Source: Rozella allomycis CSF55
Lineage: Eukaryota
Direction of reading: 5' to 3'
Length of the DNA: 64,000 bases
NCBI GenBank assembly: GCA_000442015.1
Contig: KE561145.1
Location: 1-64,000 of the forward strand
Shown: positions 3,142 through 4,303 of the stretch, one piece after another
Layout of the letters: each line of letters opens with the position of its first letter
How positions within the stretch are numbered: the first letter of the stretch is position 1
Position numbers and translations under genes: made by a program
The notes under the pieces: generated by a model
What the model saw: the letters and a program-made list of their open reading frames with translations, nothing else
What the model was told of the DNA's origin: nothing
The model's database searches: none

Positions 3142-4303
3142 CTATCGCCACCATTTATTTAAATTATGTTTATACCATTCAATGGTCTCTGTTAATCCCT
3201 GCTCAAATGTGATTTTGAATTTCCAACCAAGAATAGTTATCTTCTGGTAATCTAACAAGTATCTTTAAAATATTTAACATTCAAATACCTGCAGTCATTA
3301 TAAACTCTATCACATGTATATTCTAAATGATCATCTGAAAGGTGAAAATGCGACAACAATGCGAGTGCCAGTTCTTTATTCGAAATTTCAAAATTAGTTC
3401 CTATATTATAAATGAATGAATCCCCCTTTTCCATAATCAATTGCAACGCGTCAATCAAATCATTAACGAAAATATAGCTTCTCTTATTATTACCATTACC
3501 GTGAAGATAACTGTAAGAAAACGAAGAATTATATACCATTTATCGCCATTCAATATGTTCTTTATAAATTTGGGAATGATTTTTTCAGGGTACTGACCTG
3601 GCCCATAGACATTGTTACTTCGCGTAATTATGATTGGTAGCTTATATGAAATCCTATATGCATTCATCAGGCACTTTTAAAACCATGCACAAGTATTACT
3701 TCAGCAGCTGCTTTAGATGCCGCGTATGGATTTGTCGGATTTAATGTTGCATCTTCTTTATGCCCGATAGGTAATGATAATGAACTTTCACCATAAACTT
3801 CATCAGTGCTAAGAAAGATAATTTTTTCTAAATTTGATTGTTTCTTGCATTCCTCTAAAAGATTCTGGGTGGCAATCACATTGTTCATTGTGTATATTTG
3901 AGGAAACAGATATGAATCATTTAGAATGAAGGAGCATTGATTAATTAATTTGCACACTTTACAAAAAGGATATCAACATTAGTGTAAGCGGCGACATGAA
4001 AGATTATGTTGATGTTATGGCTGGAGAATATATCTGAAACTCTTTCACTTTGGCACAGGTCAATCTGAAATATGAAATTAATTATCATCTATACTTTTAT
4101 AAATGAAACATTTTTAATCATCTTTAACGCTTTAATTGCCTCATTCGAGGAAACCTTTGAAACTTTATCGAGAGCAACGACACTGTGATCAGAGTAAGTG
4201 TTGGCCAAATGTCTGGTTAAATGGAATCCACTGCATAAATCAGTGGGTCTATAATTTACATAAATCCAGCTGCCCCAGTCACTAAAATAGTTTTCCTTGT
4301 CAT
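3142..4303 (-). CDS. TGDS: dTDP/UDP-glucose 4,6-dehydratase (TGDS/RmlB-like)
   Basis: [51 protein letters not shown]; includes a U12-type intron at 3921-3973. Confidence 0.9.

What the first reader, a model, noticed from the sequence alone, without database searches (positions are those of the whole stretch)
3921..3973. U12-type (minor spliceosome) intron with AT-AA ends in TGDS
Minus strand reads AAT GTT G|ATATCCTTTTTGTAAAG…ATGCTCCTTCATTCTAA|AT GAT TCA TAT, giving AAYTNVDDSY (family AAxTHVDxSF). It has a perfect U12 donor ATATCCTTT, a branch-like CTCCTTCAT unusually close to the 3' end, and twice the normal length (53 nt). Unspliced gives a stop and no nearby GT-AG solution exists. A 56-nt form ending in TG is also in frame. 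A 28-nt gtaaag…caatg GT-TG unit sits inside it, so it could be a twintron (speculative). This implies a minor spliceosome retained in a very compact genome.
Basis: partly seen in the sequence, partly recalled or inferred. Interest (0 to 1): 0.75.

Follow-up and report, generated by a model that had tools for sequence, protein, structure and literature searches.

The report
Rozella's hidden AT-AA minor introns
A 53-base intron in a sugar-metabolism gene of the fungus-like parasite Rozella allomycis is one of about 18 unannotated introns of the rare "minor" class that mostly end in AA and have their branch site unusually close to the end, in a species that a published survey lists as having none.

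Summary
Observation confirmed. The 53-nt stretch (3973-3921, minus strand) interrupts a TGDS-like gene of Rozella allomycis. Homologs fix the junction at AT-AA (331 bits, against 323 for the 56-nt TG form and 287 for the best GT/GC-AG). Contigs of four DNA runs keep the AA end and carry a consensus branch box.

It is not alone. An extended donor (35 sites against 4 control) yields 18 confident minor introns: all start AT, 12 end AA and 6 AC, 49-60 nt long, with the branch A 6-9 nt from the end (reviewed optimum 11-13; non-canonical ends about 4% elsewhere). U11, U12, U6atac and a ZRSR2-like gene are present; U4atac was not found. U6atac and U12 depart from Rfam consensus where they would extend pairing with these introns. 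A 263-species survey lists these snRNAs but zero minor introns for Rozella; the public model of this gene misses the intron. The twintron idea is not supported.

No RNA data, so splicing and branch use are inferred. This scan noted three of these introns and U11 singly before. New variant of a known kind.

The parts
3921..3973 (-). U12-type intron, 53 nt, AT-AA ends, phase 1, third of six introns
   Evidence: junction inferred from homologs, no cDNA
3961..3973 (-). Extended minor donor (13 nt, ATATCCTTTTTGT); +4..+11 can pair with the U11 5' end, +4..+13 with the U6atac 5' region
3926..3934 (-). Branch box; predicted branch A at 3927, 6 nt before the intron end (position -7). Assembly reads CTCCTTCAT, run contigs read TTCCTTAAT
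3921..3922 (-). Terminal AA; no other letter in contigs of 4 of 4 DNA runs
3935..3962 (-). 28-nt GT..TG stretch proposed as an inner intron; rejected
3142..4303 (-). TGDS-like NDP-glucose 4,6-dehydratase gene, 7 exons, 323 aa. The public model (P0001, 225 aa) starts downstream of the minor intron
3974..4064 (-). Exon 3, upstream of the minor intron
3700..3920 (-). Exon 4, downstream of the minor intron
4231..4259 (-). Major intron 1, GT-AG, 29 nt
4065..4094 (-). Major intron 2, GT-AG, 30 nt
3674..3699 (-). Major intron 4, GT-AG, 26 nt
3511..3536 (-). Major intron 5, GT-AG, 26 nt
3263..3288 (-). Major intron 6, GT-AG, 26 nt
   Evidence: gives the same C-terminus as P0001

Best explanation
A genuine U12-type intron, removed by a retained but re-tuned minor spliceosome. 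Steps: (1) U11 pairs with donor +4..+11 (pairing computed, use inferred). (2) U6atac takes over and pairs over +4..+13, which explains the fixed G and T at +12/+13 (computed, inferred). (3) U12 pairs with the branch box and, in half of the introns, with a GTG further upstream (computed, inferred). (4) The second A of the box branches (inferred). (5) The 3' cut is placed 6-9 nt after that A at an A followed by A or C, so AA works as well as AC (junctions inferred from protein homology). The TGDS intron is one of 18 such introns. GT-AG minor introns seem to have been lost or converted, leaving those that the major spliceosome cannot take over (inference).
For: Junction. Class: 35 donors vs 4 control. 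Of 22 distinct A-donor sites with T at +13, 18 give an in-frame AA or AC 6-9 nt after the branch A, 1 is AA at an uncertain place, 3 were rejected. Register checked against relatives for 6 of 18, all AA: TGDS, kinase and branching enzyme, MTG1, XPG, Bud20 (47, downstream side only). Phase 1/2/0 = 13/3/2 (without L033), the order reported for minor introns. Machinery: U11 78.1 bits, over the cut-off; U12 36.4 bits, E 6e-5; U6atac 26.8 bits, E 5e-4; U12 and U6atac pair with each other; ZRSR2-like gene beside a separate U2AF1-like gene. Extended pairing: GTG upstream of the box in 9 of 18 vs 1.6 in shuffles (max 7 of 5000); U12 duplex -10.35 vs -7.64 +/- 0.37 kcal/mol; U6atac-donor duplex of 10 pairs, -12.4.
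Against: No cDNA or lariat data. U12 and U6atac score below Rfam's gathering cut-offs. U4atac was not found by model or by two pairing patterns, and no U11-48K zinc finger was found. A 6-nt spacing is below the reviewed optimum of 11-13 nt. 12 of 18 junctions rest on open frames and my frame choice only. The set was found through the extended donor, and the 6-9 window was chosen after seeing the data, so the chance figure (10^-9.5) is too flattering. The branch A of L025 was set by eye. GT-type candidates were 31 vs 19 control, not zero, though none showed clear exon support. The ZRSR2 label is a motif reading plus an Atlas lead of 0.86.
Confidence: 0.85

Rival explanations
1. Same introns and ends, but the minor machinery is decaying and the major spliceosome (or a U4/U6atac hybrid) removes them.
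For: U4atac not found; U12 and U6atac below the Rfam cut-off; no 48K zinc finger. Olthof 2024 discusses U4 standing in for U4atac (passage).
Against: Donor and branch signals match U11, U6atac and U12 of this genome, including changes absent from the Rfam consensus. The introns are 49-60 nt while major ones in this gene are 26-30 nt. A hybrid that uses U4 would still be U12-dependent splicing.
Confidence: 0.07
2. The intron is real but ends elsewhere: 56 nt at TG, or a normal-distance AG/AC, so the close branch spacing is an artefact.
For: The TG end is in frame. In-frame AG at +15 or more exists for several introns. Earlier scan notes report TG-ending major introns in this genome (unchecked).
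Against: AA form +7.8 bits and 35 of 35 homolog spacings. Registers for kinase, branching enzyme, MTG1 and XPG leave no room for a deletion.
Confidence: 0.04
3. Twintron or stacked unit: a 28-nt GT-TG major intron is removed first, then a 25-nt minor intron.
For: The letters exist. Earlier scan notes describe stacked mini-introns and TG ends in this genome (unchecked).
Against: The GT is +12/+13 of the shared donor (23 of 29 A-donor sites have T at +13). Such units occur in 10 of 18 introns vs 8.6 in shuffles, P=0.31. The 25-nt remnant would be half the shortest intron of the class (49 nt).
Confidence: 0.03
4. Pseudogene or assembly error (true end AC).
For: The assembly differs from run contigs at three or four places inside the intron.
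Against: No difference at 3921-3922 in 4 of 4 runs; an intact 323-aa frame; 11 further AA-ending introns.
Confidence: 0.01

Closest known systems
Non-canonical AT-AA U12-type introns of animals and plants (Larue & Roy 2023, PMC10639083, passages; Sheth 2006, PMC1557818, passages and Table 2)
   Same: Donor, branch box, AT-AA ends; AT-AA is the commonest non-canonical end there.
   Different: There all non-canonical ends make up about 4-5% of minor introns and GT-AG dominates. Here 12 of 18 are AT-AA and none found is GT-AG.
Canonical U12-type introns (Turunen 2013, PMC3584512, passages)
   Same: U11/U12/U6atac pairing sites, no pyrimidine tract, phase bias; host genes XPG/ERCC5 and GBE1 also carry minor introns in human and mouse (same position not shown).
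   Different: Branch-to-end optimum 11-13 nt there, 6-9 nt here (counting conventions may differ by a base or two); donor fixed to +13; U4atac not found.
Transformed minor system of Physarum polycephalum (bioRxiv 10.1101/2020.10.12.336362, passages)
   Same: Minor introns hidden by a GY-AG-only annotation; U12 snRNA changed together with the branch signal.
   Different: Physarum: thousands of introns, mostly GT donors, core box changed, branch A at -12..-10. Rozella: about 18, AT only, core kept but pairing extended, branch A at -7..-10.
Fused or extended branch signals of major introns in Giardia (PMC3510501, passages) and microsporidia (PMC6349667, passages)
   Same: Extended donor, branch point close to the 3' end, longer branch-snRNA helix in a reduced parasite genome.
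   Different: Those are U2-type (or hybrid) systems; here the same drift appears in the minor class.

Membership tests
U12-type (minor) intron | 5' splice site RTATCCTT | tested here: met
U12-type (minor) intron | Branch box TCCTTRAY-like near the 3' end, able to pair with U12 | tested here: met
   One mismatch in the assembly (-5.4 kcal/mol), consensus in run contigs (-8.7)
U12-type (minor) intron | Interrupts a conserved coding frame that is restored by removal | tested here: met
U12-type (minor) intron | Genome encodes U11, U12 and U6atac | tested here: met
   U12 and U6atac below the Rfam cut-off; U11 and U6atac at the same coordinates in Olthof 2024 Table S7
U12-type (minor) intron | Genome encodes U4atac | tested here: inconclusive
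   None at E<=0.1 among 50 scored of 648 candidates; pattern searches gave no candidate
U12-type (minor) intron | Minor-specific proteins | tested here: inconclusive
   ZRSR2-like gene found; 48K zinc finger not found; RNPC3, PDCD7, CENATAC not searched
U12-type (minor) intron | Excised in vivo, dependent on U12/U6atac | not testable with these tools
   No RNA holder listed
Canonical AT-AC subclass | Terminal AC | tested here: not met
   Ends AA; filed under the AT-AA subclass instead
Canonical (animal/plant) U12 spacing | Branch point about 10-20 nt from the 3' end (typical, not defining: Sheth 2006 passage) | tested here: not met
   6 nt here; 6-9 nt in 18 of 18; branch A predicted, not mapped
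U2/U12 twintron | Inner intron with its own U2 signals, beyond chance | tested here: not met

The most novel reading that the evidence does not exclude
Rozella runs a minor spliceosome re-tuned for AT-only introns: U6atac and U12 have co-evolved longer helices with donor and branch region, the 3' cut is set by a 6-9-nt ruler that accepts AA as readily as AC, and U4atac is absent or unrecognisable. It would be the first described genome in which a non-canonical terminus is the majority minor class, and the last minor system on the branch leading to microsporidia.
Probability: 0.55. Interest if true: 0.78.

Novelty: new variant of a known kind. Interest (0 to 1): 0.64.

Why it matters
It resolves a published mismatch: Olthof 2024 lists U11, U6atac and a putative U12 for Rozella but 0 minor introns. 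Surveys that score annotated introns cannot see this class, so some reported losses of minor introns may be annotation artefacts. It also offers natural substrates for two open points: how short the branch-to-3'-end distance can be in the minor spliceosome, and whether terminal A-A pairing can be the norm. About 18 short introns in a culturable parasite make this directly testable by RT-PCR and lariat mapping.

Tried and rejected
Expression: no RNA holder listed; only DNA contigs were laid.
U4atac: Rfam model, two patterns from U6atac complementarity and cmscan of 20 of those loci gave nothing.
A back-translated U2AF35/ZRSR2 motif pattern gave 1 chance hit; the Pfam CCCH search then found both genes. 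The homolog search for the ZRSR2-like piece returned only Rozella's own record.
Conservation of the TGDS intron position: a metagenome pattern scan gave 4 hits, all high-GC sequence without TGDS context. TGDS has 0 rows in the Olthof 2019 supplements and 0 in Olthof 2024 (an Ensembl id recalled from memory also gave 0). A paper search for human TGDS exon borders was seen as a listing only. The position's age stays open.
Rows dropped before the count of 18: of 35 donor sites, 12 lack A at +1 or T at +13 and were set aside; L064 duplicates L053; L024, L050 and L065 were rejected (no box, or a long antisense frame); L033 ends AA at an uncertain place (43, 52 or 67 nt; its row was mis-indexed, statistics redone without it).
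Of 12 hits without the extended donor, 9 lie inside a frame of 95 or more codons; L004, L005 and L023 are unresolved.
GT-type search: 31 vs 19 control, 30 loci fetched, no convincing intron.
A PDB search with the upstream piece of L037 found nothing; for PPCS only the upstream side was aligned.
Dietrich 2001 is not held. No Rozella entry in the searched supplements of PMC8280824 (file 13 not searched) or PMC11039992.

Full report
Observation. The minus strand at 3973..3921 is a 53-nt stretch that begins with the U12 donor and ends in AA. It lies in a seven-exon TGDS-like gene (4303-3142, 323 aa) whose other five introns are GT-AG and 26-30 nt long. The best protein hit is the record of Rozella allomycis CSF55; that public model has 225 aa and starts downstream of this intron. 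The genome has 11.86 Mb in 1059 contigs.

The junction. I built an HMM from the homologs that are 300 aa or longer and scored all in-frame cuts. With the donor fixed, AT-AA at 53 nt is best of 21 (331.0 bits); the 56-nt TG form gives 323.2. All top solutions remove 53 nt. The best GT/GC-AG solution gives 287.0. In 35 of 35 homologs where the motif was found (119 examined) the spacing equals that of the AA form. Contigs of four DNA runs from four studies (one may be the assembly's source; two are of low depth) show no other letter at the AA, and all differ at 3928, 3934 and 3953; the first two turn the box into TTCCTTAAT. Contigs drop rarer alleles, so the assembly's version may be a second haplotype.

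The class. Donor plus branch box gave 20 genome matches against 7 control; 8 shared a longer donor, ATATCCTTTTTGT. The 12-mer donor gave 35 against 4: 29 start with A, and 23 of those have T at +13. After removing one duplicate, three rejects and one uncertain case, 18 remain. All start AT; 12 end AA and 6 AC; lengths are 49-60 nt; the predicted branch A lies 6 (10 cases), 7 (1), 8 (2) or 9 (5) nt before the end. Host genes with family hits include XPG, a protein kinase, branching enzyme, cullin, PEN-2, LSM12, a syntaxin-like protein, MTG1, Bud20 and PPCS; the names UBE2O and CHMP1 are my recall of motifs. Six junctions, all AA, were checked against relatives: TGDS; kinase and branching enzyme, where Pfam positions on both sides leave exactly the residues that the AA end supplies; MTG1; XPG residues 29 and 30; Bud20, downstream side. 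The other 12 rest on open frames and my choice of frame. AA makes up 75% of AA+AC in the flanking exons, so 12:6 is what a machine indifferent to the last base (A or C) would leave. A search for GT-AG members gave 31 against 19 control and no convincing intron; this is weak evidence of absence. The set was found through its donor, so members with a shorter donor may be missed; of 12 such candidates 9 lie inside long frames and 3 are unresolved.

The machinery. U11 scores 78.1 bits, over the cut-off. U12 (36.4 bits) and U6atac (26.8 bits) are full-length matches below the cut-off and can pair with each other. U4atac was not found. A ZRSR2-like gene exists beside a U2AF1-like gene (Atlas lead 0.86). 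The 48K zinc finger was not found; RNPC3 was not searched. The U6atac 5' region pairs with donor +4..+13 over 10 pairs (-12.4 kcal/mol), while U11 reaches +11; the Rfam consensus has other bases opposite +11 and +12. U12 carries ACAC after its branch-pairing motif where the consensus differs. A GTG lies upstream of the box in 9 of 18 introns against 1.6 in shuffles, and the U12 duplex is 2.7 kcal/mol stronger than with shuffled upstream bases. These are single-genome correlations, not shown interactions.

Mechanism. Shown: letters, frames, homology registers and computed pairings. Inferred: excision, the branch A, and dependence on U12/U6atac. The simplest reading is a minor spliceosome that leans on longer RNA helices and places the 3' cut a short fixed distance after the branch, at AA or AC. 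That A-starting introns are poor substrates for the major spliceosome (Moyer 2020 passage) would explain why only these survived.

Twintron. The inner GT belongs to the shared donor, and inner units of 26-31 nt are no more frequent than in shuffles (10 of 18 vs 8.6). Rejected.

Comparison with print. Turunen 2013 (passages) gives an optimum of 11-13 nt from branch sequence to 3' end. Larue & Roy 2023 (passages; supplement searched, part 1 read) report AT-AA as the commonest non-canonical end, with all such ends near 4%; Rozella appears there only as a tree label whose values I could not read. Sheth 2006 (passages, tables) counts 8 AT-AA in four species. Olthof 2024 (passages, supplement rows) lists Rozella with 0 minor introns, U11 and U6atac at my coordinates, a putative U12 and no U4atac. 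Physarum (passages) is the precedent for hidden minor introns and snRNA co-evolution, with the branch A at -12..-10. Giardia and microsporidia (passages) show the like drift in major introns. Kwon 2023 (passages) added nothing on spacing. A full-text search for Rozella + U12 + intron found 0 papers; Rozella allomycis + spliceosom + introns found 11, seen as a listing, one of them read in passages; the listed rows had no occurrence of Rozella or its phylum names. Subscription papers, bioRxiv supplements and online intron databases were not visible and may hold these introns. Earlier notes of this scan describe the XPG, UBE2O and PEN-2 introns and U11 one by one, with the same lengths; they are not independent support, and the notes shown do not give the genome-wide pattern.

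Verdict. A real U12-type AT-AA intron (confidence 0.85 for the explanation as a whole, higher for the intron alone). Singly it is a known rarity. As a member of an AT-only, mostly AT-AA, short-spaced minor class with matching snRNA changes, in a species scored as having none, it is a new variant of a known kind. Interest 0.64, held down by the lack of RNA evidence.

Noticed in passing
window 3996-4164 and 4334-4400: Run contigs split into two haplotypes with depths near 1:2 (39.8 vs 82.2; 73.3 vs 180.4), so the organism is heterozygous here. The assembly's weaker branch box may be a minor haplotype or an assembly artefact.
   Followed up: partly
G000:C861:545001 and 550701 (L053, L064): The same minor intron and syntaxin-like exons occur twice, 5.7 kb apart: tandem copy or assembly duplication.
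   Followed up: no
L002:1501-1607 and L001:1501-1633: U6atac has GGC where the Rfam consensus has the AGC triad, and its helix-I partner bases in U12 have changed to match. GGC is recalled from plant U6atac, not checked.
   Followed up: partly
window 53282-53309 (+): A 28-nt stretch with a U12-like GT donor, box and AG lies antisense inside a long open frame (peptidase-like by eye): not an intron.
   Followed up: yes
window 47847-47919 (+): tRNA gene, the only Rfam match in the window.
   Followed up: no
18-intron set: Branch-to-end distances are two-peaked: 6 nt (10), 7 (1), 8 (2), 9 (5). Unexplained; both peaks include register-checked cases.
   Followed up: partly
L095 (G000:C861 near 600,200, minus): ZRSR2-like gene with two zinc fingers, an RRM and an RS tail; the public record P0121 is a partial hypothetical protein.
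   Followed up: partly
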